DNA of 64,000 nucleotides, taken from an uncultured Planctomycetia bacterium (GTDB taxonomy: Bacteria > Omnitrophota > Gorgyraeia > 2-02-FULL-51-18 > JAGOUK01). Every line of letters begins with the position of its first letter. The stretch's first letter is position 1. This document shows, in pieces, positions 8,920-64,000 of this stretch. The stretch covers positions 60,082 to 124,081 of the forward strand of contig CAYSFB010000001.1 in assembly GCA_964430735.1 (NCBI GenBank), written 5' to 3'. The notes beneath the pieces are model-generated. The model did no database searches, was not told the DNA's origin, and worked only from the letters and a program-made list of their open reading frames with translations. The translations under genes were made by a program, and so were the position numbers.

Positions 8920-8922
8920 GGC

Positions 8923-46312: not shown

Positions 46313-48897
<2,585 letters not shown>

Positions 48898-48908
<11 letters not shown>

Positions 48909-49938: not shown

Positions 49939-49939
49939 G

Positions 49940-50179: not shown

Positions 50180-50258
50180 AGATCCTCCAAAATCACAATG
50201 TATCAACAGATGTCATTAGTAGTCAATAGTGGTCATGCTCGTCTTCATCCCAGGCAGG

Positions 50259-50298
50259 TTATTTACAAGCGGCGTATAGCGTGTATAATCCCTGTCTT
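50259..50298 (+). promoter_or_regulatory. putative sigma70-type promoter (TTTACA-N15-TATAAT), probably giving a leaderless or near-leaderless mRNA for the methyltransferase
   Basis: TTTACA at 50263-50268, TATAAT at 50284-50289, ATG at 50299. It sits in a 120-bp AT-rich divergent intergenic region. Confidence 0.35.
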
Positions 50299-51051
50299 AT
50301 GCCATCCAATCAAAAAACGACGCCCCAATCGAACGACACTTCCTTTGACTATCACAAGGTCCGCGCAGGACATTACGACAAGATCTGCACGGACGGCGGC
50401 AAGATCCGCACCTTTTGGCATCAGTACCGCTTCCAGGAGATCGAGAGGATGATCGATTCGGACCAAAACTCCCGCATCCTGGATCTGGGGTGCGCGAACG
50501 GCACTTTTTTGGGCAATCTTAAAAAGCCCTACGCCAAAGCCGTGGGACTTGAGCTTTCCAAAAGTCAGGTGGAAACGGCGAATCGGTTGTACGGGAGCGA
50601 AAAGCTGACGTTTTTGACGGGAGATGTGAGGGAGTTGAAGCTTCCCGAGGGCGGCTTTGACTACATCGTGATCAGCGAAGTGATCGAGCACGTCACCTAC
50701 GACAAGTCGATCCTGCTGCTCAAGCGCATCCACGAGCTTCTATCCGACCGAGGCCGGCTCGTTCTTACGACGCCCAATTACCAGAGCCTATGGCCGGTGT
50801 TGGAATTTTTTGTGAATAAATTCACGGATGTGAGCTACGAGCACCAGCACATCAACAAGCTCAATCTCAAGACGCTCGATCAGCTGATCGCAAAGGCGGG
50901 CTTCAAGGCGGAACGGCTCGAAACGTTCCATATCGTCGGCCCCTTTTTGGCGGGTATTTCCGAAAAGCTCGCTTCCAATGTGTGCGATTGGGAGAAGCGC
51001 GCGTTCCCCCGTTGGGGAGAGGAGATCAACCTGCGCGCCGTCAAGGCCTGA
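50299..51051 (+). CDS. class I SAM-dependent methyltransferase (plus strand; converges on the next gene)
   Basis: Motif I ILDLGCANGTF; post-I LSDRGRLVL. It is the only plus-strand gene within the glycan array, and GC content is about 55%. Confidence 0.65.
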   Translation: MPSNQKTTPQSNDTSFDYHKVRAGHYDKICTDGGKIRTFWHQYRFQEIERMIDSDQNSRILDLGCANGTFLGNLKKPYAKAVGLELSKSQVETANRLYGSEKLTFLTGDVRELKLPEGGFDYIVISEVIEHVTYDKSILLLKRIHELLSDRGRLVLTTPNYQSLWPVLEFFVNKFTDVSYEHQHINKLNLKTLDQLIAKAGFKAERLETFHIVGPFLAGISEKLASNVCDWEKRAFPRWGEEINLRAVKA

Positions 51052-52426
51052 CCGGCGCCGCCTTTCCCCCGTTCTTTTCCCGTATCCACGAAACCCCGAG
51101 CAGCAGCAAGTACCCGGTCAATCCCGCCAGCAGCAGGTAGTTCGGCCGTTTGAAATAGGCAAAAAGTCCTACCAAGGTCAGCATCAGATACAGCCATGGG
51201 TTCTTTGGAAAACGCGCCAGAATGAGCCATGGGAACGACCACGTCAGATACCACTGGGACCAGGCAGAGGTGATCTGGAAACAAAAGCCCAAAAAGGCCA
51301 CGGTGAGGATTTTCATGAACGCGGATGAGGCGGCCTGCGGGACCCTGAAGCACGCGATCAACAGACCAGCGTAAAGGACCAGATATCCCTTGCGGAAGAT
51401 GGCGGATATCAGCTCGGGGCTCACATCAAGACCGGCGAGACCCAGCGCCTGCCGGACCGCATACGGGACCGCATTCGTATAGAATCCGTCCGAGAACGCG
51501 AGCAGAAATTTAAAATGCTCCATGATTTTTTCCAAAAACGGCGCATACAGCGCAGCGATCAGCAGGAGACCTGCGAGCGACGTCATGACAAGCCACCGAA
51601 GGACGGCTTTCCAACCGCCCAGGCGGAACTGGGACTTGAGCGCCATGATGAACAAAAACGGCGCAGCGTAAACGGCCGTGTACTTACTCATGATCGCCAG
51701 GAGGGTCAACAGCATCGCCGCAGTGTTTTTGGAGGCCGTAAGCGCGAGCACCGCAAACACCAAAAAGCCGATCATGAAGATGTCGTTGTGCCCGTCCTGA
51801 AGGAAAGAGACGATCACGAACGGATTGAAGCAGAACATTGACATGGCGATGCCCGGATTTGCGTCCATGAGGCGGGCAAGCCGGCCGATGCCGAATGTGG
51901 TCACGGCCAGCATCGCCAAGGTCATCAGCTTGAAACACCAGGTCGGGGCCCATACGGTGTGACCGCAAAGCCAGGTCACCAAAGCCTGGATGTATGCGGT
52001 GACAGGGCCGTAGGATTGCGGGACCCTCGTCCAGACTGAGAGCGGATAAAACAAGTCTTGGGGGAACTCCATCGGATAGTGCGCATACGGGCTGAGGCCG
52101 TAATGCGACATGATCCTTCCGCGGATCAGGTATTCGTTCAAGTCTCCCGAGAATATCGGGAAGGAAGTGGCGATCAGGGCCCCGGCCGCCAGATAGAGGG
52201 TGATGCTTCGGGCGCTGAAGCCGGGAGTGATCCTAAAATAAATGAGCCAGGTCGTCGGAAGCAGCATCAAAAAAACCAAGTTGATCCAGACCCGGCCGTA
52301 CGGGTGCAGCGGCGGAAGGTTGCCGTCTCCAAATGCGTTTTTTACAAAATGAAACGTGATCAGCAGCAAAAGGACCGCCAGATGAATGGCGATCGCCCGC
52401 TTTTCGATCCACTTAATCAAGTTCAT
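51041..52426 (-). CDS. polytopic membrane protein, GT-C-like (DUF2029/GT87-like?)
   Basis: Start MNLIKWIEKRAIAIHLAVLLL at 52426; at least 11 TM helices. Confidence 0.35.
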   Translation of the reverse strand: MNLIKWIEKRAIAIHLAVLLLLITFHFVKNAFGDGNLPPLHPYGRVWINLVFLMLLPTTWLIYFRITPGFSARSITLYLAAGALIATSFPIFSGDLNEYLIRGRIMSHYGLSPYAHYPMEFPQDLFYPLSVWTRVPQSYGPVTAYIQALVTWLCGHTVWAPTWCFKLMTLAMLAVTTFGIGRLARLMDANPGIAMSMFCFNPFVIVSFLQDGHNDIFMIGFLVFAVLALTASKNTAAMLLTLLAIMSKYTAVYAAPFLFIMALKSQFRLGGWKAVLRWLVMTSLAGLLLIAALYAPFLEKIMEHFKFLLAFSDGFYTNAVPYAVRQALGLAGLDVSPELISAIFRKGYLVLYAGLLIACFRVPQAASSAFMKILTVAFLGFCFQITSAWSQWYLTWSFPWLILARFPKNPWLYLMLTLVGLFAYFKRPNYLLLAGLTGYLLLLGVSWIREKNGGKAAPVRP

Positions 52427-53627
52427 CCGCCGCCTCCCTAAGTATGACGTCCGCCACGACCGCATGAGCCTCCCGGGTCCAATGGGAATCCATCGCAAAG
52501 TACATTCGCTTCCCTCCCCCGGGTTCCCGCGCTGCGCGGATCAGGTCTTCTGACGGGTCGATCAGCGGAAGGCGCAGCCGGGCGCAGATGGCTTCAAGCC
52601 TCTTGGCGACTTCCCGGATATCCCAGTCGGTGTCATTGAACCCATAACGGATCCTGGTGGCCAGCCAATGCTCGGGGTACACCGCCGGTCTCGGCGGCAC
52701 ATACACGATAACGAGCCGGCCTCCGTCATCTTCGATCCGCTCCTGTAATTTTTTCAGAATGGCTTCGGTGAGGACCCATGCCTCCTCCGTCCGCTGGTCG
52801 GGCCTCACGGCCCAGACCTTAAAATCCGCCGGAATTTCTGCCAATTGCACTCCGGTGAGACCGGCACGCGCCGCCCAACCGACCAGAACGGAGCTCTCCC
52901 GGACCTTCTTCCGGATCCAGGCATAAAGCTTGGAATGCCCGGACAAATATTCCTTGGCGGCGACCAGAGGGTTCGGGCGCGCCGACGGCGCGGACGCGCC
53001 CGGTCCCGCCGAAGGCGCCCAATTCGGATCGGGATGGTGAGCCAGCACGAGCTCGTCGTTCCGGTATTCGAGCCGTGGCTTCTGGACATCGATAAAAACA
53101 TCCTCGGTGTTCATCCAGACATCGTTGTCATGAAACAGCAGCAAGGTCAGGTCGGGATCGAACTTTTTTCCCTCTTCCAGATATGTCAAATACTCCTGGT
53201 CCGTGCTGTATCCGCTGACCCCCAGGTTCCGGACGTCGAACTTTTTGTCCGCTGCGCGCGCGTTCAGGAGGGCCTGCAGCCGCTCCGAGAACCTCTCCTC
53301 CAGGAGGATCTGGTCCGCCTGCGCGAAGGAATCGCCGAGCACCAGGATCCGCTTGACGGCCGGATCCGCCGCAGACTCAAATTCCCCTCCCCGATACCCG
53401 TCCGCATTCACATAAAAGTCGATGTGCCGGCCGTCTTCCGACCGGTAGCTGTGAGACCCCCGGGTCAATCGAGGGTTCAGCTTCCATCCGAGGGTCGGAT
53501 GGAATTCGCCGATCTTGACCGGAGCATGACTTGCGGCCTGAGCGATGCCGATGACCCTGAGGGTCAGCTCGCAGCCGACGAGAAGCGCGCCGCACACGAA
53601 ACAGAAAAGAAGGATATTTTTAATCAT
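52413..53627 (-). CDS. membrane-anchored SGNH/DHHW-family protein (AlgX/AlgJ-like), paralog 2
   Basis: N-terminal TM helix, ILVLGDSFAQ (GDS block), C-terminal AMDSHWT (D-x-H-W). Confidence 0.55.
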   Translation of the reverse strand: MIKNILLFCFVCGALLVGCELTLRVIGIAQAASHAPVKIGEFHPTLGWKLNPRLTRGSHSYRSEDGRHIDFYVNADGYRGGEFESAADPAVKRILVLGDSFAQADQILLEERFSERLQALLNARAADKKFDVRNLGVSGYSTDQEYLTYLEEGKKFDPDLTLLLFHDNDVWMNTEDVFIDVQKPRLEYRNDELVLAHHPDPNWAPSAGPGASAPSARPNPLVAAKEYLSGHSKLYAWIRKKVRESSVLVGWAARAGLTGVQLAEIPADFKVWAVRPDQRTEEAWVLTEAILKKLQERIEDDGGRLVIVYVPPRPAVYPEHWLATRIRYGFNDTDWDIREVAKRLEAICARLRLPLIDPSEDLIRAAREPGGGKRMYFAMDSHWTREAHAVVADVILREAADELD

Positions 53628-55134
53628 GGGGCGTGGGTTCAGGGCGCTGCCGGTCCTTCAATTCAAAAATGACATAGTTCGAAGCGATCCTGATCGGGAC
53701 GTATCGGCGCTTCAGTTCAGCGATGAATTCGGGAGGGTTCGGCAGATCGCTCAGCTGGGACTGGACATAATAGGAAGCTCCTTGAGAACGTCTGCGGTCC
53801 AGGTCCGACAGAATGTCCTCCGCGGTCCGGCCCCGGACATCGATCGTCCATCCTCGGCGGTCACAAAAATAGACCTGCACGTTCGATCCCCCGTAGCCCG
53901 CGACGACAAGCGCGTCCTTTGGAGCGACGGCATCCAGCGCCTCTCCGGCTTCCCGGGTGACCGCCAAATTCCCGGGCACCGAGAATATCCCCCGGTAATA
54001 ATGGGCGGTTGTCACGACGCTGCAAACCAGCGCAACAAACCCCAATGCGCGGATCTGCCGGCGGAACCTTCCTCCGGTAGAAGCAAGAGAAGCCGACCCG
54101 ACGCCGACCGGAACGGCCAAAAAAGCCGCGAGGGGGTATTGATAGTACCCGTGATCGATCAGAATTCTCCACAATCCCAGTACATAAACGGCCATGCTAA
54201 AAGCCCACCAGGCCACGGCGTGATCCTTCTTTTTCCAACAACTCCAGGCGCCGACGGCGGCCGCCAAAACGCCGGCAGGCGTCAGGATGTGCAGCAAAAA
54301 GATCTTGAGGATCCTGACCAAATAGAGCGGCGCCCAAAGATCCCAGTATCCGGAGCCCTCGGGGCCCCGGGTATGAACAAAAGCGAACGGCAGGTACGCC
54401 AGTTCCAAGGTCCGGCCGGCATGCCACATCGCGAGATACCAAGGCAACGACCCCAGAGCGATCGCGGCGTAAGCCCAGTTCTTCCATCTTCCAAAAAGGG
54501 CCGGTCCCTGCACCGACCAAAGCATGACAAAGGCCGGGAGCAAAAGAGGCGCCGATTGGATCTTCGTCGCCACGGCCAAAAAAGCGCAAACGGACGACGC
54601 CCAGAACCATCTTTCGCGGCCAAAGGTCCTGTACCGGTCCATGAAAAAGAGCGCCCCAAGCACGGAAGCCAGCATCATGGCGTCCGGCTGCAAAGCCCGG
54701 GAAAGCCCGAGACTCAAAGGACTGAAGGCAAAAAACGCGGCTCCAAAAAGCGCGGCCGGACGGCCGTAGCGCCTCCGAATCCAGAGATAAAGGAAGCTGA
54801 TCGAGATCATCGAACACGCCACCGGCACCAGACGCGCGGCCCAGGCTTTGACGCCGCCGGCAACGGCATATCCAAGCGCCATCAAATACGGCGTGAACGG
54901 CATTTCGGCGTTGAAAAGATACGGACCGTGCCCGTTCTCGTCGATCTGAGGATAAAAAAAGTTCCAATCTCGCTGATAAAAGTTCCGGGCGACGGAAGCG
55001 ACGATGGCCTGGCGCGACAGCGAGTTGTAAGGTTCGAGGGTGGGGAGATCGATCTGCCAAAGGCGGATCAGGAGCGCGGCGGCGAACAGAAGCGCCGCCG
55101 GAAAACTAATTTTTTTTAGAACCGGTAAAAACAT
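53620..55134 (-). CDS. GT39/ArnT-like GT-C membrane glycosyltransferase
   Basis: Start MFLPVLKK at 55134 (55143 is possible). PMT_2-like loops and at least 11 TM helices. Confidence 0.55.
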   Translation of the reverse strand: MFLPVLKKISFPAALLFAAALLIRLWQIDLPTLEPYNSLSRQAIVASVARNFYQRDWNFFYPQIDENGHGPYLFNAEMPFTPYLMALGYAVAGGVKAWAARLVPVACSMISISFLYLWIRRRYGRPAALFGAAFFAFSPLSLGLSRALQPDAMMLASVLGALFFMDRYRTFGRERWFWASSVCAFLAVATKIQSAPLLLPAFVMLWSVQGPALFGRWKNWAYAAIALGSLPWYLAMWHAGRTLELAYLPFAFVHTRGPEGSGYWDLWAPLYLVRILKIFLLHILTPAGVLAAAVGAWSCWKKKDHAVAWWAFSMAVYVLGLWRILIDHGYYQYPLAAFLAVPVGVGSASLASTGGRFRRQIRALGFVALVCSVVTTAHYYRGIFSVPGNLAVTREAGEALDAVAPKDALVVAGYGGSNVQVYFCDRRGWTIDVRGRTAEDILSDLDRRRSQGASYYVQSQLSDLPNPPEFIAELKRRYVPIRIASNYVIFELKDRQRPEPTPHD

Positions 55135-55849: not shown

Positions 55850-55851
55850 AC

Positions 55852-56808
55852 TCAGAACGCTCCGCCCCTTGACGCCTCGAGCCGGATCCACTCGACCGTG
55901 CGACGGATCCCCTCCTCCAGCGGCGTGGTCGGCTTGTAATTCAAGTGGGCGCGGGCCGCATCGATCGACGCCAGGCGGCGGGAAACGCTGTCCCAGTTCC
56001 GGCGGGGCCGGAATTCGACCCCGGCCTTGTTGCCCGTGCATTCGTTGATGATCTCAGCGACCCGGAGGATGGGCGTTTCGACCCCCGAAGCGATGTTGAA
56101 GATCCGGCCCGAGATCCCTGGGGTCTTGAGCGCCGAAACGACACCGTCGACCGTGTGGCCGTTGAAGTTGTAGTCGCGCGTCTCGGTACCGTCTCCGGTG
56201 ATCGACAGCGGCTTGCCCTGAAGGGCAAGGTGGATAAAATTAGGGATCACGTTCCGGTATTTTCCGGGCCGCTCCCCGGGCCCGAACGCGTTGAAGAATC
56301 GAAGGATCACCGTGTCCATTTTATAAAAATCGTGAAAAAACCGGACGTACCGCTCGCCGAGCAGCTTGGTGATCGCATAAGGGGTATCCAAGCTGAATTC
56401 CTGCGTGTCTTCTTTGAGCACGCCGCCCTTGTTGCCGTAAACGCAGGAAGATGAGCTGTAGACGATTCGCCGGACCCCGGCGCGGTGGGCGTACTCCAGC
56501 ACCTTGAGCGTGCCCATGCCGTTCACTTCCAGGTCCTTGCGCGGATAGTCGACGGAATTTTGGTTCGCAAAATTGGCGGCCAGATGACAGACGTGGGTCA
56601 GGGGCTTTGAAAAGATCTCTTTGAGGATCTCGTCGTCCGTGACGCTGCCGCGCAAGAAGGTGAGCTTGGGGCTGGCTGGAAGATTTTCAATATATCCGGA
56701 CGAAAGGTCGTCCAGAACCACGACCGAACGCACGTCCGCGTCCGCCGCGAGCCTGCTAACCACATTTCCGCCGATCGCCCCGGCGCCGCCGGTCACAAGA
56801 ATATCCAT
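55852..56808 (-). CDS. NAD-dependent epimerase/dehydratase (UDP-glucuronate decarboxylase/ArnA-C-like extended SDR)
   Basis: ILVTGGAGAIGGN and YAITKLLGE motifs. Confidence 0.7.
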   Translation of the reverse strand: MDILVTGGAGAIGGNVVSRLAADADVRSVVVLDDLSSGYIENLPASPKLTFLRGSVTDDEILKEIFSKPLTHVCHLAANFANQNSVDYPRKDLEVNGMGTLKVLEYAHRAGVRRIVYSSSSCVYGNKGGVLKEDTQEFSLDTPYAITKLLGERYVRFFHDFYKMDTVILRFFNAFGPGERPGKYRNVIPNFIHLALQGKPLSITGDGTETRDYNFNGHTVDGVVSALKTPGISGRIFNIASGVETPILRVAEIINECTGNKAGVEFRPRRNWDSVSRRLASIDAARAHLNYKPTTPLEEGIRRTVEWIRLEASRGGAF

Positions 56809-56835
56809 GATTCCCCCTCAGTGAAGAATCGCAGA

Positions 56836-58332: not shown

Positions 58333-59351
58333 CGCCCGGCCAACGCACGGTCGACGAGCGCCGGCACGGCCGAGGGGTCCTCACCGGCCAACACGTTCGT
58401 GCCCATGCTCAGCGTCACCGGGCGCTCCGTATTGGGCCGAAGGGTGATGCATGGCCGGCGAAGATACGTCGTCTCCTCCTGAATGCCTCCCGAATCAGTC
58501 AAAGCAAATGCGCAGGACCCGATGAGCCTTAAAAAATCCAGATATCCCAGCGGGTCGCACAAGACGAGACCCGGGATCCGTTTGAGCCGCCGATCCAGCC
58601 CAAAACGCTTGGCATTCGCCAGCGTCCGCGGGTGAATCGGAAACACCAGACGGGTCTTCTTGGCAACCGTCTCGAGAACGCCCAGAATGCGCGCAAAAGC
58701 CCGAGGATCATCGACATTGATCGGCCGATGAAGCGTCAAGACGCCGTAGCCCCCGGTCCGAACGCCGAGGCGGTCCAAAATACCCGATCGGCGGATGGCC
58801 GGGCGGTTGGCGACCAGCGCGTCGATCATCACATTGCCGGTCCAATCGATCCGCTCAGACTCAACCCCCTCCCGACTCAGGTTGCGGACGCCCGACGGCT
58901 CGCTGACGAACCAAAAATCGGAGATCCGATCCGTGAGCACCCGGTTGATCTCTTCCGGCATGGAAGTATCGAAGCTCCTGAGACCCGCCTCCACATGAGC
59001 GACCTTGACGCCCAATTTGGCGGCGGCCATCGCGCAGGCGATCGTCGAATTCACGTCGCCGACGACCAGCACGACGTTGGGCCGATGCTTGAGAAGGACA
59101 GGCTCGAACGACTCGAGAATACGGGCGGTTTGGACCGCGTGGCTCCCCGACCCCACGCCCAAATGCTCGTCCGGCTTGGGAATGGCCAAGTCCTGAAAAA
59201 AACTTTCGGACATCGCGTAGTCGTAGTGTTGACCGGTATGCACCAGGATCGTCTCAAAGTCCGCGCGGTGCTTCCGGAACGCGGCCGCGAGCGGAGCGAT
59301 CTTGACGAAGTTGGGGCGGGCGCCGGCGACCATCAGGATACGGTGTTTCAT
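58227..59351 (-). CDS. wecB: UDP-N-acetylglucosamine 2-epimerase (WecB/NeuC family), second copy
   Basis: Start MKHRILMVAGARPNF at 59351 (ATGA overlap); HVEAGLRSFD motif. Confidence 0.75.
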   Translation of the reverse strand: MKHRILMVAGARPNFVKIAPLAAAFRKHRADFETILVHTGQHYDYAMSESFFQDLAIPKPDEHLGVGSGSHAVQTARILESFEPVLLKHRPNVVLVVGDVNSTIACAMAAAKLGVKVAHVEAGLRSFDTSMPEEINRVLTDRISDFWFVSEPSGVRNLSREGVESERIDWTGNVMIDALVANRPAIRRSGILDRLGVRTGGYGVLTLHRPINVDDPRAFARILGVLETVAKKTRLVFPIHPRTLANAKRFGLDRRLKRIPGLVLCDPLGYLDFLRLIGSCAFALTDSGGIQEETTYLRRPCITLRPNTERPVTLSMGTNVLAGEDPSAVPALVDRALAGRWKRGLVPPKWDGRAAERIVSALDRRLLRASKRRR

Positions 59352-60685
59352 GCGTGCGATTTTTCCCGGGATTTGAATGCGAGGATACTTTTTACAATTT
59401 GAAAAACCCAGAACAAGCATATCACCGAAAATGTCAGCCGCGCCAGCGCGACACACTTGCCCCAAGGCATGTAGCGGTCCATAAGCTCGTGGAGGCTGGG
59501 TGCCTCCGCCAAAGCCGGATCCAAATGCACCATAAGGGCCAGATTCATCTCACGGGAGTCCAGATTGAACAAAAAAAGCAACCCGACCGTCGCTGCAGCC
59601 AGCCATCCGGGGCGCAGAATGCCGCTCACCCGGACCAGGATCCAGAACGCCAGCACCCACATGAAGTAATGGATCATCGTAGTGGATGTTGCATACAACG
59701 CCAGCAGCACCGCCGACGATGCGGAAGCCCACAGGATCAGCCGCTCGGCCGGCGTCCTCGCGCCGCCCCTCCAGCATGCCGCGACGACCCATACCCATAA
59801 ACATGCGAACAGCGCCTTGAACGCCAAAGCCGATTCCGGCGTGAGGCCCCTGAAGATCCCCTGCATCGATGCGCGCTGGACCACCGGCGAAAAGTAACAG
59901 GCCAGCACATACCCCTTCGAGATCAGGGCCCAGGGCGCCAGCACCGCAACGGCCGGCGCGAGCATCGTCGCCAAAAGGCGGGCTCTTTCGCGCCACCCGT
60001 CCGCCCAGGTGAGCACGGTCGGAAGCAGGATCAGAAGGCCGAAGTTGTCCAGCAAAAGGACACACCCGAACGCCAATGCCGCCAGGGTTTTTCGGTCCCG
60101 CTGGAGCAGGGCCGCAGACGCCCATACCGCCAAAGCCGGCAGGATCCGGTATTGGCCGAATGCAAATATCGAGAACAGCAGCACCGGATGAAAAAGCCAG
60201 GCCCGCTCAAGGCCCCGCAGGCCCGGATCGCGCCGCGCGATGGCGCGGACCAGCGGCCAGCACAGCAGATCCGCGATCAAATATAGCAATTTGGCGAGGA
60301 ACAGCCAGCGGATCACATCGATCTGCGCAAACCCGTCCAGATAATCCAGGATGCCGCGGGGGCTCGCCGCACCCATCAAGCCGTCGGCTCGCTGCATCCA
60401 GGAGTCGAAACCGGCCGCCAAGGGACGCGTGATCATCTGCCAGAGTCCGGTGATCCAAAAAACCATCGGATGATAATACGTAAACCCTTGCTTCAAAAAG
60501 GTGTCGGCAAAATGGCCGTAGATGTCCTGAACGCCGCGGTAACTCCAATGCCACGGAAAATATTGAATGAAGATCAGATCTCCGTGCAGGACAAGCGGCA
60601 TCAACGCCAGACGCGCCGCTATGGCAGCGGTCCATTCCCATCGAGAAATACCCGGCTTATTCGGGGATGCCGTCGCGGAAGTCAT
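59348..60685 (-). CDS. hypothetical polytopic membrane protein (possible GT-C or polymerase-like)
   Basis: 445 aa with about 12 predicted TM helices; no motif is confidently recognised. Confidence 0.3.
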   Translation of the reverse strand: MTSATASPNKPGISRWEWTAAIAARLALMPLVLHGDLIFIQYFPWHWSYRGVQDIYGHFADTFLKQGFTYYHPMVFWITGLWQMITRPLAAGFDSWMQRADGLMGAASPRGILDYLDGFAQIDVIRWLFLAKLLYLIADLLCWPLVRAIARRDPGLRGLERAWLFHPVLLFSIFAFGQYRILPALAVWASAALLQRDRKTLAALAFGCVLLLDNFGLLILLPTVLTWADGWRERARLLATMLAPAVAVLAPWALISKGYVLACYFSPVVQRASMQGIFRGLTPESALAFKALFACLWVWVVAACWRGGARTPAERLILWASASSAVLLALYATSTTMIHYFMWVLAFWILVRVSGILRPGWLAAATVGLLFLFNLDSREMNLALMVHLDPALAEAPSLHELMDRYMPWGKCVALARLTFSVICLFWVFQIVKSILAFKSREKSHA

Positions 60686-62282
60686 AAACCCAAATGGAGT
60701 TGCCGATCACCTTGACCGGCCGATAACGCTCGAACCACTTCATCGTGTCAATATGATGGACGGCCAGCGCGTAAACGGTCGCGCGCGGATGCTCGTAGTC
60801 GGCCGGCGTCGCCTCCACGGCAGGGATCCCGTAATAGGCCGGATCGGCCGAACCATAGTACATCAGCACCACTTCGCGATACCCCCGAGCCCCGACGAAC
60901 TCGCCCAATCCTTTCAGGTCCTGGCCCCAGTCGATGTTGGAGTCGCGGAGCCAGCGATAGCCGTTCTTCGGGCCGCCCGCCAGCTGATTAAAATACGTCA
61001 GGTGGTCCGGAAAGATCCGGGCCGCTTCCAGCGCATGCCACGCCAAAATGGCGAGGCACCCCGCTTGCGCGGCACGGATCCGCGAGGACCAGGCGCGGGC
61101 GATAAGCGATCCCGCAAGGATCATCAGAAGCGGATAGACCGGCAAAAAGTAACGGATCCCGGCCTGCGCCCGGTCCGGCATCGTCACAATAAAGAAAAAG
61201 ACGGCCGGCACCAGCAGCACGGCGCGCGCCGCGCGGTCCAGCGGAAGCCATTTCCATCCGGCCAGCGCCAGAAGGATCAGCAAAAGGAACGGAAGCGTGT
61301 TTTTAACCCCGAAGGCCGCGTAATAATACTGCGGCCAGCTTTTTTTACCCTCGGACCATTCGCCGAGAAAAAAGGCATTGGTCCCCTTGGCCCGCGTGAA
61401 CACCATGCTCCCGATCGACGACGCAAAGGTGGTGAGCGGCAGAGGGACGTCGCGGGCGATCATGACCAGGGGCTCTCCGCCGATCTGCCTCAAAAAAGCC
61501 TCTTTCTTGAGCGGATCGGGCGTATTTTTCAGCAAGGGCTTCATTTGGAAAAAGTACCCCGCCCAGACCGTCAAAAGACAAACGGCGGCCGTCAGGACGA
61601 TCCTCGAGGGACGGACCAGGCGGGGTTTGCCGGCAGCGGCCGCGACCAGAAGCAGGACCGGCGGCAGTAGCAGCGCCGTGAACTTGGATAAAAAAGCGCC
61701 GCCTGCCGCCAGACCCGTCCACACCAGCCATTTCTTTTTCTCGCCGCTCAGATATTTCCAAAAGGCCGCGAGCGCCAGCGTGAAAAACAAAGCGATGGAA
61801 AGGTCGGACGTGGCCAGCTGCGAATGCGCGAGGATGTCGGGACAAAAAACGTAGAGCGCGAGCGCCGCCAGGCCCGCGACCGGGCCCGCCAGCCCACGCG
61901 CCCAAAGAAAAACGACCCAGCCGAACAGCATCGACAGCAACACGATCGGAATCCGCGCCCAAAAGACCAGCCGGTCCGCGCCGATATCCGAATTGGCGCG
62001 ATAAAAGAATTCCCGCGCAAAAGCCGGACTGTCCCCCGCCTCCCAGGACGGATGCTCCCATGGCCCCTTCGCGCCCATGAGCGCCATCGGGACCGCCGTC
62101 AAATACCGCGGCAGCGGCGGCATTGCGGGGTTCATCCGGAAGTCCTGCTTCATCAGATGGGAGAAGCCGCTGGCCAAATGATGCGCGAGCTCGTCGCTGG
62201 TCGGAGACTTTTGAATCATCGCTGGAATGAGTTGAAGCGGGAGCAGCAACAGGAATATGAGCGGCAGGAATTTACTCCTCAT
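60657..62282 (-). CDS. GT39/ArnT-like GT-C membrane glycosyltransferase
   Basis: N-terminal PMT_2-like region MIQKSPTSDELAHH, TM helices and a C-terminal periplasmic domain. Confidence 0.55.
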   Translation of the reverse strand: MRSKFLPLIFLLLLPLQLIPAMIQKSPTSDELAHHLASGFSHLMKQDFRMNPAMPPLPRYLTAVPMALMGAKGPWEHPSWEAGDSPAFAREFFYRANSDIGADRLVFWARIPIVLLSMLFGWVVFLWARGLAGPVAGLAALALYVFCPDILAHSQLATSDLSIALFFTLALAAFWKYLSGEKKKWLVWTGLAAGGAFLSKFTALLLPPVLLLVAAAAGKPRLVRPSRIVLTAAVCLLTVWAGYFFQMKPLLKNTPDPLKKEAFLRQIGGEPLVMIARDVPLPLTTFASSIGSMVFTRAKGTNAFFLGEWSEGKKSWPQYYYAAFGVKNTLPFLLLILLALAGWKWLPLDRAARAVLLVPAVFFFIVTMPDRAQAGIRYFLPVYPLLMILAGSLIARAWSSRIRAAQAGCLAILAWHALEAARIFPDHLTYFNQLAGGPKNGYRWLRDSNIDWGQDLKGLGEFVGARGYREVVLMYYGSADPAYYGIPAVEATPADYEHPRATVYALAVHHIDTMKWFERYRPVKVIGNSIWVYDFRDGIPE

Positions 62283-63423
62283 GCGCCTGGCCCTCTGCAG
62301 AATGTGCGGTCAACAGCCCGCGCTTCTCAAGGGCCTGCTCGATCGACGAGGCGATCCGCCGGTGGCCCTCAGAATTGGGATGGAAGCTGTCCGTGGGCAC
62401 GATAATAAGCTGTGACGCATCGGACCCCGCGAACTCGGGCAAAAGATCCAGCGTATCGATCCCGAGGCGTTCCGCCTCCGACGCCACTTTTTGATGAATA
62501 AAACTCCAGGGGTAGCCTTGGATCTTTTCGAGAGACTCAAATCGCGGGATCAGAACCAGAAGAAGGGGGGTCTTCCGCAGCTCCGACCAGCGCTTGAGGT
62601 CCGCCAACGCCTGCCGGCACGCCCGCCAGCCCCCGTGGTCGTCCGCAAATTGATCTTCATAGCTTTCGGAATGCCGGCCGGTGGCCGTCTGATGGCGAAA
62701 AAGCTCCATCGCCCGGCGAAGCACGGCGTAGAGATAAGAATGATCCCGAACCCAATTTTTGATCCGGATCAAGGTGCCGTATTTGGGGTCGATGAGCCCC
62801 GCCTGCTTGGCAAGCGGTTCCGCGTCATTGAGGACGAACCCGACCAGGACCAGGTCCGGATCATAGACGCCTCCGGCCTCCTGCAGCAACATGTATTGCT
62901 GCAGCGTGTTGTAACCTCGCACGCCGGCATTCAGGACCTCAGCGGTGCGCCCCTGAGCTCCCAACCGCCCGACCAGACGACGCTCCAGGACATCAGAAAA
63001 GGTATCTTCGACGCGCACGCCATCGCCAAAAGCCACAGAATCACCGAGCACGAGGATACGGAAGGAATTTTGGGGTTTTGGGATTTGATACTCCCGATCC
63101 CGAAGCCCGCGCGAGTTGATCCGGATCGGATGGCCAAATCGGTCCTTGCCCTTGAATCCGGGTCGATGCTCAAATGCCCGAGTTTTGCTGGCCCGAAAAA
63201 GCCCGGGAGGCGTGTCCACCACCGCAAATGTCGCGGCGGCCCATTCGGAGATCAATAAAGCTGCAACACATCCTGCAAACAAAAGCGAGACAGGCGCGAC
63301 CCAGGCTGCGATCCTGCCCCCCTGCCGTTTCACCGGACCGGGACCTCGGAGGGTCCTTTGCGCAGGAACGCAGTCGCAAATGCGTACCGGTACCAGCGCA
63401 AATAGATCGGCAGCCATTTCCAC
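62272..63423 (-). CDS. membrane-anchored SGNH/GDSL hydrolase, paralog 4
   Basis: ILVLGDSVAFGDG (GDS block) and DSFHPNSEGH (D-x-x-H). Confidence 0.55.
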   Translation of the reverse strand: MEMAADLFALVPVRICDCVPAQRTLRGPGPVKRQGGRIAAWVAPVSLLFAGCVAALLISEWAAATFAVVDTPPGLFRASKTRAFEHRPGFKGKDRFGHPIRINSRGLRDREYQIPKPQNSFRILVLGDSVAFGDGVRVEDTFSDVLERRLVGRLGAQGRTAEVLNAGVRGYNTLQQYMLLQEAGGVYDPDLVLVGFVLNDAEPLAKQAGLIDPKYGTLIRIKNWVRDHSYLYAVLRRAMELFRHQTATGRHSESYEDQFADDHGGWRACRQALADLKRWSELRKTPLLLVLIPRFESLEKIQGYPWSFIHQKVASEAERLGIDTLDLLPEFAGSDASQLIIVPTDSFHPNSEGHRRIASSIEQALEKRGLLTAHSAEGQAHEE

Positions 63424-64000
63424 AACCGGAAGCGGCTCTTGCCGGTGGCCCGCTCAAACCATTGCGCGGGAACCTCGGAGATCTTCCATCCCAACCGCCG
63501 GCATTTAACGAGCATCTCGATGCTGAAGGCCCATCCTTCGGAGGATTCGACGCGGACCGTGCGTATGAGTCTGCGGGAAAACAGCCGGAAACCGTTCGAG
63601 GAATCGTGCGTGGGGATACGGGCCAAATGGTACAGCGTGAACGCAGCCGAGCGGACGAGAACAGCCTTGATCCACGGACATCCCTTCATGCAGCCGCCCG
63701 GCATGAACCGGCTCGCGGAAACAAGCTCCGCGCCGTCGCGGAACGCTTCCATCATCCGGTCGATGATGGGTCCGTTGAACGTGTCATCCGCCGGAAAAAC
63801 CAGAACAGCCGGCGCGGTCGCCGCCTCGAAGCCCGTCATCACCGCTCCGTGGACGCCGCGGCCCCGGTTGCGGATGCGCCGGATGATCCCGTGCGACAAA
63901 TAACGGTCCAAAGCCGCGAGCGTGTTGTCTTCTTCGCTGTCGTAAAGGATATGGATCTCGAACGGCGTGCGGACGCTCGCCTCAAGATGATCGAGAACTT
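63330..64000 (-). CDS. GT2 polyprenyl-phosphate sugar synthase (GtrB/DPM1-like), 5' end beyond the window
   Basis: The reading frame stays open upstream of the annotated Met (ILYDSEEDNTLAALDRY...). The C-terminal part carries DSSNGFRLF, typical of GtrB/DPM1. Confidence 0.6.
   Translation of the reverse strand, partial: VLDHLEASVRTPFEIHILYDSEEDNTLAALDRYLSHGIIRRIRNRGRGVHGAVMTGFEAATAPAVLVFPADDTFNGPIIDRMMEAFRDGAELVSASRFMPGGCMKGCPWIKAVLVRSAAFTLYHLARIPTHDSSNGFRLFSRRLIRTVRVESSEGWAFSIEMLVKCRRLGWKISEVPAQWFERATGKSRFRLWKWLPIYLRWYRYAFATAFLRKGPSEVPVR

What the first reader, a model, noticed from the sequence alone, without database searches (positions are those of the whole stretch)
51041..64000. Reiterated GT-C / DHHW-SGNH / polyprenyl-P-sugar-synthase modules forming a periplasmic glycan-decoration array
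The last 13 kb repeats a pattern three times. Block one: polytopic GT-C-like protein (51041), DHHW-SGNH (52413), GT39 (53620), DPM1-like GT2 (55106), decarboxylase-like SDR (55852). Block two: DHHW-SGNH (56836), WecB (58227), membrane protein (59348), GT39 (60657). Block three: SGNH (62272), DPM1-like GT2 (63330, continuing past the window). Together with 10267, 25779, 34010, 35946 and 38210, the window encodes eight GT-C-like transferases and three lipid-phosphate sugar donor synthases. This is a Gtr/Arn-like logic: cytoplasmic charging of a polyprenyl-phosphate with a monosaccharide, then periplasmic transfer by a GT-C enzyme. It appears here multiplied and interleaved with membrane-anchored SGNH paralogs, probably O-acyl transferases or esterases. 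The SDR, DPM1-like GT2 and GT39 trio resembles ArnA(C-domain), ArnC and ArnT. Such a dense paralogous array suggests combinatorial or phase-variable surface-glycan modification. No GtrA-type small flippase is seen.
Basis: inference. Interest (0 to 1): 0.65.

Follow-up and report, generated by a model that had tools for sequence, protein, structure and literature searches.

The report
Two lipid-carrier sugar-decoration modules with esterases
The end of this window, probably from an uncultured Omnitrophota bacterium, is one long operon that appears to load unusual sugars onto a membrane lipid carrier and attach them to a surface glycan outside the cytoplasm; this is a crowded, lineage-specific version of a known strategy, not a new kind of system.

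Summary
The genes are real and sit at the stated coordinates, all on the minus strand, overlapping like one operon that runs past the window end.

**Gene content:**
- two DPM1/ArnC/GtrB-class GT2s with no membrane helices
- four GT-C-fold transferases: two PMT_2 type, one MptA/B-like, one divergent GT87-like (shown by structure prediction)
- three membrane-anchored SGNH hydrolases with intact catalytic motifs
- a WecB 2-epimerase
- an SDR

- Read in the direction of transcription there are two GT2-to-GT-C modules, not three repeats.
- The paralogs are ancient (40% identity or less, or undetectable). There are no DNA repeats and no sign of phase variation.
- The SDR is a WbmF/Mth375-class epimerase, not an ArnA-like decarboxylase.
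- PF14286 (DHHW) is not hit.
- The SGNH fold is closest to esterases and to CgnD, not AlgX.
- No MBOAT/AT3 partner and no GtrA/ArnEF flippase is encoded in the 64 kb.

**Comparison with relatives:** related metagenomic loci keep GT2-SGNH-PMT_2-(GT87-like) and WecB-SDR-GT2-PMT_2 units. They swap tailoring cassettes such as formyltransferase, ArnD-like deacetylase and carbamoyltransferase.

**Verdict:** this is a periplasmic glycan decoration array that uses polyprenyl-phosphate sugar donors, a new variant of a known kind. The acceptor, the sugars and the SGNH role remain inferred.

The parts
63330..64000 (-). GT2a: DPM1/PpgS/PgfS-like polyprenyl-phosphate sugar synthase. The full gene is 244 aa; its 5' end lies 64 nt beyond the window. 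No TM helix.
   Evidence: Pfam GT2 53.9 bits. PDB best hits are Dol-P-Man synthase 5mlz (8e-12) and GtrB (2.7e-5). The full gene is seen on L001. NCBIfam best hits are PgfS, Dol-P-hexose transferase, PpgS and AglJ, all below the equivalog cutoffs.
62272..63333 (-). SGNHa: signal-anchored canonical SGNH hydrolase (353 aa; GDS97, DSFH315-318).
   Evidence: Lipase_GDSL_2 49 bits. Motifs checked. One N-terminal TM. It lies between the GT2 and PMT_2 in the window and L087; in L089 a methyltransferase/GT2 fusion takes the GT2 place, and L067 has an SGNH nearer the 52413 type there.
60657..62282 (-). PMT_2a: GT-C transferase of PMT/ArnT type (541 aa, at least 8 TM, D30-E31 after TM1).
   Evidence: PMT_2 54.6 bits and PMT 28.4 bits, both above threshold. 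TM count. 75% identical ortholog in L087 and 58% in L089.
59348..60685 (-). Divergent GT87-like GT-C (445 aa from ATG 60685; called as 417 aa from 60601). It has an 'HGDLIFIQYFP' loop after TM1.
   Evidence: Pfam GT87 19.3 bits, below threshold. AF2 model with pLDDT 85.8 and pTM 0.88. Foldseek top hits are all GT-C: GPI-MT-I 9wno, PIG-U, ALG6, ArnT, Emb, ALG3. A profile search finds 977 cluster representatives. 5 of 10 remote ones pass the Pfam GT87 threshold. hhalign to the 51041 protein gives 74% probability and E 2.7e-5.
58227..59351 (-). WecB-type non-hydrolysing UDP-HexNAc 2-epimerase (374 aa).
   Evidence: Epimerase_2 334 bits. TIGR00236 307.9 bits against a cutoff of 210. 40% identical to the second WecB at 27545.
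56836..58230 (-). SGNHb: SGNH hydrolase with about three N-terminal hydrophobic segments (464 aa; GDS169, DTHW421-424).
   Evidence: ALGX 53.4 bits (partial, profile positions 13-138 of 268) and GDSL_2 39.5 bits. Motifs checked. 42% identical ortholog in L088/L090, there on the opposite strand beside WecB.
55852..56808 (-). WbmF/Mth375-class SDR nucleotide-sugar epimerase (318 aa).
   Evidence: PDB 6pmh 3e-95 (322 bits) and 2pzj WbmF 1e-54; UXS decarboxylases about 105 bits. ArnA model 28 bits. The fingerprints NFANQ, SSC, YAITK, FFNA, ERPGKYRNV and ETRDY match those listed for Mth375 in PMC12820599.
55106..55849 (-). GT2b: DPM1/ArnC-like polyprenyl-phosphate sugar synthase (247 aa, no TM, basic amphipathic C-terminus).
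   Evidence: GT2 54.2 bits. PDB hits 5mlz 1.3e-20 over residues 4-238, ArnC 2.9e-12, GtrB 3e-3, and no other GT2 class. 55-59% identical orthologs sit next to a PMT_2 in L087 and L088.
53620..55134 (-). PMT_2b: GT-C transferase of ArnT/PMT_2 type (504 aa).
   Evidence: PMT_2 63.9 bits. 37% identical ortholog after GT2b in L087.
52413..53627 (-). SGNHc: signal-anchored SGNH hydrolase (404 aa; GDS98, G136, N168, DSHW380-383).
   Evidence: GDSL_2 42.6 and ALGX 34.3 bits. Catalytic residues are invariant in a 40-sequence alignment. AF2 pLDDT 89.5. Foldseek best hits are CgnD 8a2n, TesA and acetyl-xylan esterases. Absent from L087.
51041..52426 (-). MptA/MptB-family GT-C (461 aa, about 9 TM, 'GDLNEY' loop). 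It is the last gene of the operon and lies in a lower-GC stretch.
   Evidence: NCBIfam MptB NF038066 54.4 bits against a cutoff of 40, but only a partial alignment; TIGR03459 83.7 bits, below cutoff. Precomputed PF26314 MptA_B_family. GC 0.56-0.59 here. Absent from L087.
50299..51051 (+). Class I SAM methyltransferase, convergent with the operon end and overlapping it by 11 nt.
   Evidence: Methyltransf_23 74.6 bits. A promoter-like site with 11 of 12 matches at 50262-50289. Absent from L087.
49940..50179 (-). HTH_17 / excisionase-type small DNA-binding protein at the boundary with the nonulosonic-acid genes. Probably a local regulator.
   Evidence: PF12728 45.3 bits. TIGR01764 31.4 bits against a cutoff of 28.8. 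81% identical and in the same position in L087.
44849..46279 (-). The only MOP/Wzx-type flippase in the window. Candidate for O-unit flipping or for flipping the lipid-linked sugar donor.
   Evidence: Polysacc_synt_3 25.5 bits. 10 TM. No small multi-TM ORF exists anywhere in the window.
25779..26468 (-). Third DPM1-like GT2 (229 aa from Met133 of the ORF).
   Evidence: GT2 106 bits. PDB 5mlz 6.4e-17 over the full length. NCBIfam AglJ 97.6 and PpgS 69.8 bits, below cutoffs.

Best explanation
Window 51,041-64,000 is most of one minus-strand operon that starts about 3 kb beyond the window end. It contains two 'lipid-carrier monosaccharide' glycosylation modules inside a locus of roughly 50 kb for LPS, O-antigen and nonulosonic acid.

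**Module A.** An oxidoreductase, an SDR and a sugar C-methyltransferase lie just outside the window. They are followed by GT2a, SGNHa, PMT_2a and a GT87-like GT-C.

**Module B.** A WecB 2-epimerase and a WbmF-class SDR epimerase are inferred to produce an unusual UDP-N-acetylhexosamine or uronic acid, possibly an L-configured sugar. They are followed by GT2b, PMT_2b, SGNHc and an MptA/B-like GT-C. SGNHb is inserted between WecB and the SDR.

**Proposed mechanism.**
1. Each soluble, membrane-peripheral GT2 transfers its sugar from the nucleotide to undecaprenyl phosphate at the cytoplasmic face.
2. An unidentified flippase moves the lipid-linked sugar across the membrane. It is not of the GtrA or ArnE/F type. 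It may be the single MOP flippase in the locus, or it may be encoded elsewhere.
3. Two different GT-C enzymes per donor attach the sugar to periplasmic acceptors. The most likely acceptor is the LPS-linked glycan made by the rest of the locus.
4. The three periplasm-facing SGNH hydrolases, all with intact Ser/Gly/Asn/His motifs, most likely remove or move acyl groups on the glycan or on the lipid-linked donor.

**Shown:** gene order, family and fold assignments, predicted topology, and conservation of the sub-modules in relatives.

**Inferred:** the lipid-linked product, the sugars, the acceptor and the SGNH chemistry.
For: - **Operon.** Genes are on the same strand with 4-30 nt overlaps, and there are no convincing internal terminators.
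- **GT2 class.** PDB sequence hits are restricted to Dol-P-Man synthase, ArnC and GtrB. A control GT2 (31467) hits GmaR and SunS instead. The best NCBIfam neighbours are PgfS, PpgS, AglJ and Dol-P-hexose transferase.
- **GT-C.** Pfam and NCBIfam scores are above threshold for three proteins. Predicted fold plus family transitivity covers the fourth.
- **Topology.** The GT2s, the SDR and WecB lack TM helices. The SGNHs have N-terminal anchors.
- **Synteny.** GT2-SGNH-PMT_2(-GT87like) recurs in L087 and, with a methyltransferase/GT2 fusion, in L089. PMT_2-GT87like recurs in L128. WecB-SDR-GT2-PMT_2 recurs in L087 and L088. L067 has GT2-SGNH-PMT_2-WecB-GT2.
- **Arn-type neighbours.** Relatives carry a formyltransferase and a Polysacc_deac_1 (ArnA-N/ArnD-like) next to the same GT2/PMT_2 genes. 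This is the signature of lipid-linked sugar tailoring.
- **Archaeal parallel.** The closest solved SDR, Mth375, also sits among DPM-synthase-related genes in its archaeal genome (PMC12820599).
- **LPS context.** The window holds an LpxL-like gene, three GT9 heptosyltransferases, a Wzy_C ligase-like gene, a Bac_transf gene and Pse/Leg-type genes.
- **Precedent.** Three-component systems are established for O-antigen side chains (PMC11127046).
Against: - There is no biochemical evidence.
- All curated equivalog cutoffs for ArnC, PpgS, PgfS and ArnT are missed by wide margins.
- The GT2s lack the C-terminal TM helices of GtrB, ArnC and PfDPMS.
- No dedicated flippase is present.
- No acyl-donor partner (MBOAT or AT3) for the SGNHs is encoded in the 64 kb.
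- SGNH homologs elsewhere are mostly not next to GT-C genes, so their link to the modules is lineage-specific and could be incidental.
- The SDR next to WecB in relatives is only about 29% identical to the window's SDR, so the sugar cannot be transferred by analogy.
- The acceptor is unknown.
Confidence: 0.55

Rival explanations
1. Same machinery, but the acceptor is lipid A or the inner core. This would be an Arn/Lgm/Flm/Rgt-type envelope-charge modification, not O-antigen or surface-glycan decoration.
For: An ArnT-like PMT_2 (10267; 94 bits to the ArnT model) sits next to an LpxL-like acyltransferase in the same window. Relatives carry formyltransferase plus ArnD-like deacetylase, or a DegT aminotransferase, inside the orthologous array.
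Against: Window 51-64 kb has no aminotransferase, formyltransferase or deformylase. The SDR is epimerase class, not a UDP-GlcA decarboxylase. Four different GT-Cs for two donors is more than lipid A needs. The array adjoins nonulosonic-acid and flippase genes rather than lipid A genes.
Confidence: 0.12
2. The modules O-glycosylate periplasmic or surface proteins, in the manner of the streptococcal Pgf system or actinobacterial PMT.
For: 60657 passes the PMT (protein O-mannosyltransferase) Pfam threshold. GT2a's best NCBIfam neighbour is PgfS, and 35946 matches the PgfM1/M2 C-termini. Pgf also has one GT2, one SDR epimerase and two GT-Cs (PMC12041528).
Against: All these matches are far below equivalog cutoffs. 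No candidate Ser/Thr-rich substrate gene was seen in the window. The context is LPS and O-antigen biosynthesis.
Confidence: 0.1
3. The GT-Cs, especially the MptA/B-like and GT87-like ones, polymerise a periplasmic homoglycan or branch directly from lipid-linked monosaccharides, as in mycobacterial lipomannan or arabinan, rather than adding single side-chain residues.
For: 51041 passes the MptB model cutoff, and the 59348 family is GT87-related. There are two GT-Cs per donor synthase.
Against: The MptB match is partial: residues 107-259 against profile positions 147-303 of 553. Processivity cannot be read from sequence. In L087 the second module lacks the MptA/B-like gene altogether.
Confidence: 0.08
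4. There is no integrated 'module'. The region is simply a gene-dense glycan island in which independently acting GT-Cs, generic periplasmic SGNH lipases or esterases and Leloir-type GT2s have accumulated by cassette exchange.
For: Paralogs are ancient and unrelated at the DNA level. SGNH homologs are usually not beside GT-C or GT2 genes. A fourth SGNH paralog lies outside the locus at 4255-5526. Content differs between relatives.
Against: GT2/PMT_2 adjacency with overlapping reading frames is conserved at 37-75% identity across several loci. The GT2s specifically resemble polyprenyl-phosphate sugar synthases.
Confidence: 0.1

Closest known systems
Gtr O-antigen glucosylation (GtrA/GtrB/GtrC) of Shigella and Salmonella prophages
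   Same: A GT2 of the GtrB/DPM1 class is followed by a GT-C that modifies a surface glycan in the periplasm. Several such units can coexist in one genome.
   Different: The GT2s here lack GtrB's two TM helices. There is no GtrA. There is no prophage context and no phase-variation signal. There are two GT-Cs per GT2. Dedicated nucleotide-sugar tailoring genes and SGNH genes are embedded in the array.
Arn pathway (ArnA-F, ArnT) and its Lgm and Flm/NaxD analogues for lipid A
   Same: ArnC-like GT2 plus PMT_2 GT-C. Orthologous loci in relatives add a formyltransferase and a Polysacc_deac_1 like ArnA-N and ArnD.
   Different: In the window region there is no ArnA-type decarboxylase, no ArnB, no ArnD and no ArnE/F. 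The SDR is WbmF class. Scores are far below the ArnC and ArnT equivalog cutoffs.
Rhizobium RgtE + RgtA/B/C/D (one dodecaprenyl-P-GalA synthase serving several GT-C enzymes). Recalled from my own knowledge, not tested here.
   Same: One lipid-linked donor synthase feeds more than one GT-C. An SDR epimerase supplies the nucleotide sugar. The target is LPS.
   Different: Different GT-C subfamilies occur here (PMT_2 plus GT87/MptB-like). SGNH genes are interleaved. The sugar is unknown. No sequence comparison was run.
Streptococcus mutans Pgf system (PgfS GT2, PgfE epimerase, PgfM1/PgfM2 GT-C); PMC5856776, PMC12041528
   Same: The same parts list: a GT2, an SDR epimerase and two GT-Cs in one operon. 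PgfS is the top NCBIfam neighbour of GT2a.
   Different: Pgf GT-Cs are YfhO type and glycosylate proteins in a Gram-positive. All matches are below cutoffs. Pgf has no SGNH.
Three-component pentofuranose side-chain systems of Citrobacter O antigens (PMC11127046)
   Same: Post-polymerisation periplasmic O-antigen decoration with a lipid-linked donor, an auxiliary epimerase and a non-GtrA (MOP/MATE) flippase.
   Different: The donor synthase there is PRPP-dependent (DPPRS-like), not a GT2. The GT-C is GT136. There is one GT-C per system.
Mycobacterial Ppm1/PpgS with MptA, MptB and PimE (GT87 clan)
   Same: TM-less polyprenyl-phosphate sugar synthases. MptA/B-family and GT87-like GT-Cs.
   Different: The organism here is a diderm LPS producer. 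Matches to the MptB model are partial. There is no evidence for mannose or for polymerisation.
AlgX/AlgJ/PatB-type SGNH O-acetyltransferases and AT3-SGNH (OafA/B)
   Same: Membrane-anchored periplasmic SGNH domains. A DxHW motif and a partial ALGX Pfam match occur in two of the three.
   Different: The motif order is canonical SGNH, with GDS first. No MBOAT or AT3 partner is present in 64 kb. The predicted fold is nearest to CgnD, TesA and acetyl-xylan esterases rather than AlgX.

Membership tests
GtrB/ArnC/DPM1-class polyprenyl-phosphate glycosyltransferase (GT2) | GT-A catalytic domain specifically similar to DPMS, ArnC and GtrB, including the C-terminal acceptor-loop region | tested here: met
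   5mlz 1.3e-20 over residues 4-238 of 247, ArnC 2.9e-12 and GtrB 3e-3 for GT2b. 5mlz 8e-12 for GT2a. No other GT2 class was hit. The control GT2 31467 hits none of these.
GtrB/ArnC/DPM1-class polyprenyl-phosphate glycosyltransferase (GT2) | C-terminal transmembrane helices (GtrB and ArnC have 2; PfDPMS has 4) | tested here: not met
   No hydrophobic segment is found in GT2a, GT2b or the 229-aa 25779 protein (its ORF's one flagged stretch lies in the GT2 domain). They resemble the TM-less PpgS and human-DPM1 type (own knowledge).
GtrB/ArnC/DPM1-class polyprenyl-phosphate glycosyltransferase (GT2) | Formation of a polyprenyl-monophosphate sugar | not testable with these tools
   Needs an enzyme assay.
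Arn pathway | ArnA: formyltransferase plus UDP-GlcA oxidative decarboxylase | tested here: not met
   The SDR scores 28 bits to the ArnA model and 322 bits to Mth375. There is no formyltransferase at 51-64 kb; one lies far away at 2059-2598.
Arn pathway | ArnB aminotransferase, ArnD deformylase, ArnE/F flippase | tested here: not met
   None is present at 51-64 kb. There is no small multi-TM ORF in the window. Orthologous loci in relatives do carry Polysacc_deac_1, Formyl_trans_N and DegT.
Arn pathway | ArnC and ArnT equivalog-level similarity | tested here: not met
   ArnC model 49.5 bits against a cutoff of 529. The ArnT model is hit only by 10267, at 94 bits against a cutoff of 567.
Gtr three-component system | GtrA-type small flippase | tested here: not met
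   No ORF of 70-230 aa with 3 or more TM segments on either strand of the window.
Gtr three-component system | Phase-variable or prophage-borne | tested here: not met
   No repeats, simple-sequence tracts or long inverted repeats. The only phage-like item is an HTH_17 gene that is conserved in place in L087.
GT-C fold glycosyltransferases | Polytopic membrane protein with GT-C family or fold similarity | tested here: met
   PMT_2 63.9 and 54.6 bits. MptB model 54.4 bits against a cutoff of 40, plus PF26314. The 59348 model's top PDB matches are all GT-C, with TM-scores of 0.54-0.60 for the best (GPI-MT-I, PIG-U, ALG3) and lower for the larger targets, and its remote homologs pass the GT87 threshold.
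GT-C fold glycosyltransferases | Acidic catalytic residue in the first extracytoplasmic loop | tested here: inconclusive
   By eye only: D30-E31 (PMT_2a), E36 or D64-E65 (PMT_2b), GD36L (GT87-like; D36 nearly invariant in A3), GD94L (MptAB-like). No structural superposition was done.
MptB (NF038066 equivalog) | Full-length similarity to polyprenol-phosphomannose alpha-1,6-mannosyltransferase | tested here: inconclusive
   The score passes the cutoff (54.4 against 40), but only residues 107-259 align to profile positions 147-303 of 553. The MptA model is far below cutoff (83.7 against 439).
DHHW family (PF14286) | Match to the PF14286 profile | tested here: not met
   PF14286 is not among the Pfam hits at E 0.01 or better for any of the three SGNH proteins. 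Only the DxHW motif is present in two of them.
AlgX/AlgJ-type O-acetyltransferase | ALGX domain | tested here: inconclusive
   Scores are above gathering (34.3 and 53.4 bits) but cover only profile positions 13-138 of 268. AlgX and AlgJ are absent from the top 50 structural neighbours.
AlgX/AlgJ-type O-acetyltransferase | MBOAT (AlgI/PatA) or AT3 partner supplying the acyl group | tested here: not met
   No PF03062 or PF01757 hit in any substantial ORF of the 64 kb. The rest of the genome was not searched.
SGNH hydrolase superfamily | Blocks I, II, III and V (Ser, Gly, Asn, His) intact | tested here: met
   GDS and D-x(1,2)-H are present in all three. S100, G136 and H382 are invariant and N168 nearly invariant (at least 90%) in 40 homologs. 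The AF2 model has an SGNH core.
WbmF/Mth375-class SDR epimerase | Best similarity and active-site fingerprints of the class, including the catalytic Cys | tested here: met
   6pmh 3e-95 and 2pzj 1e-54. NFANQ, S-S-C, YAITK, FFNA, ERPGKYRNV and ETRDY match the published HFANQ, SGC, YQVTK, FFNV, EVPGKYRNV and ETRDW. Activity and substrate are not testable here.

The most novel reading that the evidence does not exclude
The SGNH proteins may be true extra components of the lipid-carrier glycosylation modules. They could be periplasmic deprotecting or acyl-shuffling enzymes that act on the undecaprenyl-phosphate-linked sugar or on the nascent acceptor, as a periplasmic counterpart of ArnD/NaxD. Each donor would then be used by an obligate pair of GT-Cs (PMT_2 type plus GT87 type). 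That would define a 'GT2 - SGNH - two GT-C' system not yet described, used by Omnitrophota to build branched, C-methylated or L-configured sugar decorations.
Probability: 0.12. Interest if true: 0.65.

Novelty: new variant of a known kind. Interest (0 to 1): 0.4.

Why it matters
If the reading is right, a candidate-phylum bacterium concentrates periplasmic, lipid-carrier-dependent glycosylation to an unusual degree: eight GT-C enzymes and three donor synthases in 64 kb. It would diversify that machinery by swapping sugar-tailoring cassettes.

This extends the Gtr, Arn and 'three-component' paradigm in several ways:
- TM-less GT2 donor synthases
- two GT-Cs per donor
- an uncharacterised GT87-like subfamily
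- membrane-anchored SGNH hydrolases that have no acyl-donor partner

It also supplies concrete enzyme sets for finding new lipid-linked sugar donors and GT-C specificities. It does not overturn any concept.

Tried and rejected
**Recent duplication.** All-vs-all BLASTP, the DNA repeat finder and TRF found only ancient paralogy. Rejected.

**Phase variation.** The homopolymer, simple-sequence and inverted-repeat scans found nothing longer than 8 nt. The A8 tract at 55110-55117 was noted but not pursued.

**GtrA or ArnE/F flippase.** A scan of all six frames for small multi-TM ORFs found none.

**MBOAT or AT3 partner.** Pfam scans of essentially all substantial ORFs found none.

**General SGNH-GT-C coupling.** I examined 80 genome loci and 37 metagenome loci.
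- Adjacency to polytopic proteins occurs in about 20% of loci.
- Those neighbours are mixed: Wzy_C, MFS, EptA-like, Wzx, PMT.
- Distant homologs of the 62272-type SGNH mostly form tandem SGNH pairs.
- Rejected as a universal module.

**ArnA-like decarboxylase reading of the SDR.** Rejected.

**'Only 12 homologs' for the 59348 family.** This was an artefact of the word index. A full profile search gave 977 cluster representatives.

**Technical limits.**
- The genome-contig scan did not recover the source genome.
- Taxon assignment rests on PriA neighbours only.
It was redone with 4 sequences.

Full report
**Observation**

The window has about 62% GC, and from 9.4 kb to its end almost every gene lies on the minus strand. 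They are reproduced by independent gene calls on a Logan metagenome contig that is 100% identical to the window over 18,149 bp (L001; window coordinate = 66,809 minus L001 coordinate).

That contig also shows what lies beyond the window end. A GFO/IDH/MocA oxidoreductase, a 323-aa SDR and a 432-aa sugar C-methyltransferase (Methyltransf_13/14) come immediately upstream of the truncated GT2.

Gene boundaries overlap by 4-30 nt or are separated by less than 60 nt, and no convincing internal terminator stands out. I therefore treat the array as a single operon that ends at 51,041, where it converges with a plus-strand methyltransferase.

**Gene identities**

Pfam and NCBIfam gave the following.

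| Gene (window start) | Assignment | Key scores |
|---|---|---|
| 63330 (GT2a), 55106 (GT2b) | GT2 | 53.9 and 54.2 bits |
| 60657, 53620 | PMT_2 GT-C | 54.6 and 63.9 bits; 60657 also passes PMT |
| 51041 | MptA_B family | passes the NCBIfam MptB cutoff, alignment partial |
| 58227 | WecB 2-epimerase | 334 bits |
| 55852 | extended SDR | 173 bits |
| 62272, 56836, 52413 | SGNH hydrolases | 49, 39.5/53.4 (ALGX) and 42.6/34.3 (ALGX) bits |
| 59348 | no significant family | GT87 19.3 bits, below threshold |

PF14286 (DHHW) is not hit by any of them.

*The 59348 protein.* Its homologs show that the true start is probably the ATG at 60685, which adds TM1 and a conserved HGDLIFIxYFP loop.
- An AlphaFold model built from a 12-sequence alignment is confident (pLDDT 85.8, pTM 0.88).
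- Its best PDB matches are all GT-C enzymes: GPI mannosyltransferase I, PIG-U, STT3, ALG6, ArnT, EmbA/B and ALG3. TM-scores are 0.54-0.60 for the best (GPI-MT-I, PIG-U, ALG3) and lower for the larger targets.
- A full profile search finds 977 cluster representatives.
- Five of ten remote ones that I scanned pass the Pfam GT87 threshold.
- hhalign links the family to the 51041 protein (74% probability, E 2.7e-5).

So the region holds four GT-C proteins: two of PMT_2 type and two of the GT87/MptA-B clan.

**What the GT2s are**

Against all PDB sequences, GT2b hits only the following:
- Pyrococcus Dol-P-Man synthase (1.3e-20, over nearly its whole length)
- ArnC (2.9e-12)
- Synechocystis GtrB (3e-3)

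GT2a hits DPMS and GtrB. The third small GT2 at 25779, which is 229 aa from Met133 of its ORF, hits DPMS over its full length. As a control, another GT2 from the same window (31467) hits GmaR, SunS and MpgS and none of these.

The best NCBIfam neighbours are PgfS, PpgS, AglJ, Dol-P-hexose transferase and ArnC. All are polyprenyl-phosphate sugar synthases, and all scores are far below the equivalog cutoffs.

None of the three has a TM helix. They end in basic, aromatic-rich amphipathic stretches. This makes them like the TM-less PpgS and human-DPM1 type rather than GtrB or ArnC (own knowledge).

**What the SDR is**

It scores 322 bits (3e-95) to Mth375 (6PMH) and 189 bits to Bordetella WbmF. 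It scores only about 105 bits to UDP-glucuronate decarboxylases and 28 bits to the ArnA model.

It carries the fingerprints published for this class, including the catalytic Cys: NFANQ, S-S-C, YAITK, FFNA, ERPGKYRNV and ETRDY (PMC12820599). That paper regards WbmF as a likely 3,5-epimerase of UDP-2,3-diacetamido-mannuronic acid. It also notes that Mth375 sits among DPM-synthase-related genes.

The 'ArnA C-domain' analogy therefore fails. An epimerase feeding a lipid-carrier GT2 is the better reading. With WecB upstream, module B plausibly makes an epimerised UDP-HexNAc or HexNAcA. This last step is inference.

**The SGNH proteins**

All three keep GDS and the block V His (DSFH, DTHW and DSHW). 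In 40 homologs of 52413, S100, G136 and H382 are invariant and N168 is nearly invariant (at least 90%). Each has an N-terminal anchor: one hydrophobic segment in two of them and about three in 56836. I infer that the catalytic domains face the periplasm.

The model of 52413 (pLDDT 89.5) is closest to CgnD, an amide-cleaving SGNH of crocagin biosynthesis (PMC10070186). Next come TesA and acetyl-xylan esterases. AlgX, AlgJ and PatB are not in the top 50.

No MBOAT or AT3 protein is encoded anywhere in the 64 kb. A hydrolytic role (esterase or deacylase) is therefore at least as likely as O-acyl transfer.

**Are the blocks a repeat?**

Not at the sequence level. DNA repeat and tandem-repeat searches find nothing beyond chance matches. 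Protein comparisons show only old relationships:

| Pair | Result |
|---|---|
| SGNH 52413 vs 62272 | 40% identity over 99 aa |
| GT2a vs GT2b | 30% identity over 152 aa |
| The two WecB genes | 40% identity |
| The two PMT_2 proteins | barely align (E 0.028) |

Read in transcription order the array has two modules rather than three blocks:
- **Module A:** [oxidoreductase-SDR-C-methyltransferase]-GT2a-SGNHa-PMT_2a-GT87like
- **Module B:** WecB-SGNHb-SDR-GT2b-PMT_2b-SGNHc-MptAB-like

Each module has one donor synthase, one PMT_2-type GT-C, one GT87-clan GT-C and at least one SGNH.

No homopolymer exceeds 8 nt and there are no invertible-element-like inverted repeats. Phase variation has no support.

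**Comparative evidence**

Homologs of the GT87-like protein lead to related loci.

| Locus | Relationship | Gene order |
|---|---|---|
| L087 | its contig carries a PriA 77% identical to the window's | dehydrogenase-GFO-SDR-C-MTase-GT2-SGNH-PMT_2-[Polysacc_deac_1-Formyl_trans_N]-GT87like-[Hexapep-DegT-GFO]-WecB-SDR-GT2-PMT_2-HTH_17-...NeuB |
| L088 / L090 | related | SGNH-carbamoyltransferase-DUF5989-GT87like-WecB-(SGNH/ALGX)-...-FormylT-deacetylase-GFO-WecB-SDR-GT2-PMT_2 |
| L089 | related | GT2-...-MTase/GT2-SGNH-PMT_2-GT87like-...-deacetylase-...-WecB-SDR |
| L128 | related | GFO-SDR-C-MTase-GT2-Hexapep-DegT-GFO-WecB-SDR-PMT_2-GT87like |
| L067 | Gammaproteobacteria MAG | GT2-SGNH-PMT_2-WecB-GT2-Wzx |

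What these loci show:
- The GT2/PMT_2 pairs, and the GT2-SGNH-PMT_2(-GT87like) unit, are conserved at 37-78% identity.
- The tailoring genes are exchanged between loci.
- The SDR beside WecB in relatives is only about 29% identical to the window's.
- SGNHc, the MptAB-like GT-C and the convergent methyltransferase are absent from L087. In the window the latter two, with the 3' end of SGNHc, lie in a lower-GC stretch (0.51-0.59). Together this suggests a cassette insertion.
- Formyltransferase and ArnD-like deacetylase genes sit inside the orthologous arrays. This is strong circumstantial support for Arn-type chemistry on lipid-linked sugars in this family of loci, even though those genes are missing from the window's copy.

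In contrast, the SGNH families as a whole are not tied to GT-Cs.
- Of 80 genome loci with homologs of the 52413-type SGNH, about 17 have an adjacent polytopic protein.
- Ten of those neighbours were scanned against Pfam: two were PMT-type GT-C (PMT_2 above threshold in L067, PMT just below it in L025). The rest were Wzy_C (two), MFS (two), an EptA-like protein, a Wzx and two unknowns.
- Of 37 metagenome loci with homologs of the 62272-type SGNH, only the L088-like one shares the context.

**Context and organism**

The rest of the window encodes:
- an LpxL-like acyltransferase next to an ArnT-like PMT_2
- three GT9 heptosyltransferases
- GmhB
- a Bac_transf initiating transferase
- GT4 and GT2 enzymes
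- a Wzy_C ligase-like protein
- three more GT-C-like proteins (34010, 35946, 38210)
- a pseudaminic/legionaminic-type set: PseB-like SDR, DegT, GNAT, NeuB, cytidylyltransferase and a HisH/HisF-like pair
- one MOP flippase

This is an LPS/O-antigen super-locus of a diderm. The named neighbours of PriA are all but one Candidatus Omnitrophota (the other is Candidatus Eisenbacteria), at 46-53% identity. The GTDB representative scan did not recover the source genome. Assignment to Omnitrophota is therefore probable, not proven.

**Mechanism and comparison with known systems**

The best-supported model is periplasmic glycosylation from undecaprenyl-phosphate monosaccharide donors. The same logic operates in:
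- Gtr
- Arn, Lgm and Flm
- Rhizobium Rgt
- streptococcal Gac, Scc and Pgf
- the Citrobacter three-component systems (PMC11127046; PMC12041528)

The array differs from each of these in five ways:
- TM-less GT2s
- no GtrA or ArnEF flippase
- two GT-Cs of different clans per donor
- embedded sugar-tailoring genes that predict unusual sugars (C-methylated, or epimerised HexNAc)
- membrane-anchored SGNH hydrolases that lack an acyl-donor partner

It fails the membership tests for Arn (no ArnA, B, D, E or F) and for Gtr (no GtrA, no TM-anchored GtrB). It should be filed only as 'works like' these systems.

The acceptor is unknown. It could be O-antigen, core, lipid A or protein. Whether either GT87-clan enzyme is processive, and what the SGNHs do, are also open.

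**Verdict**

The finding is real and correctly placed, and its central interpretation is broadly right. Several labels are wrong or too strong: three repeats, DHHW, GT39, decarboxylase-like, and recent or phase-variable. It is a new, lineage-specific variant of a known kind of system. Interest is moderate. Most of it lies in the conserved GT2-SGNH-PMT_2-GT87like unit and in the cassette-level diversification of lipid-linked sugar donors in an uncultured phylum.

Noticed in passing
window 4255-5526 (-), with 298-1647, 2059-2598, 3243-3731 and 1-297: A fourth SGNH paralog of the same DxHW/ALGX type (GDS123, DGHW380) lies outside the glycan locus. Its neighbours are a formyltransferase-like ORF, a 4HBT thioesterase, a FadL-type outer-membrane transporter and a ketoacyl-synthase fragment. 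This hints at a lipid or acyl context for this SGNH family.
   Followed up: partly
window 49940-50179 (-) and 50197-50289: An HTH_17/excisionase-type 79-aa gene sits exactly between the GT-C array and the NeuB operon. It is 81% identical and in the same place in L087. Divergent promoter-like sites flank it, one with 11 of 12 matches to consensus. It is probably a local regulator rather than a mobile-element remnant.
   Followed up: partly
window 50000-52500: GC drops to 0.51-0.59 over the plus-strand methyltransferase, the MptA/B-like GT-C and the 3' end of SGNH 52413. These three genes are missing from the orthologous L087 locus, which is consistent with a recently inserted cassette.
   Followed up: partly
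window 55110-55117: An A8 tract (T8 on the plus strand) lies in the 28-nt overlap between the end of GT2b and the start of PMT_2b. It is the longest homopolymer in the region. It was not examined in relatives for length variation.
   Followed up: no
window 41589-50076: A nonulosonic-acid gene set: PseB-like dehydratase, DegT aminotransferase, GNAT, NeuB, cytidylyltransferase, a HisH/HisF-like pair and a 388-aa ORF with no Pfam hit. The HisH/HisF-like pair and the unannotated ORF may point to an acetamidino-modified sugar; this is recalled from my own knowledge and not tested here.
   Followed up: no
L085 9193-12609; L088 7612-9993: SGNH homologs elsewhere lie beside a carbamoyltransferase, a small protein and DUF5989 (an SxtI/J/K-like trio). 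In L088 this trio directly precedes the GT87-like GT-C, which suggests O-carbamoylated sugars in sister loci.
   Followed up: no
L054 (Trichodesmium erythraeum IMS101), about 8.4-21 kb: Six tandem or near-tandem paralogs of these SGNH proteins occur in one 13-kb stretch of a cultured cyanobacterium. This could be a tractable organism for testing the family's function.
   Followed up: no
window 5638-9261: Two AmtB ammonium transporters, each with a P-II gene, in divergent orientation. They are unrelated to the finding.
   Followed up: no
window 35946-38213 (-): A 755-aa polytopic protein matches YfhO and PgfM1/PgfM2 only weakly, at its C-terminus (24 bits, below threshold).
   Followed up: partly
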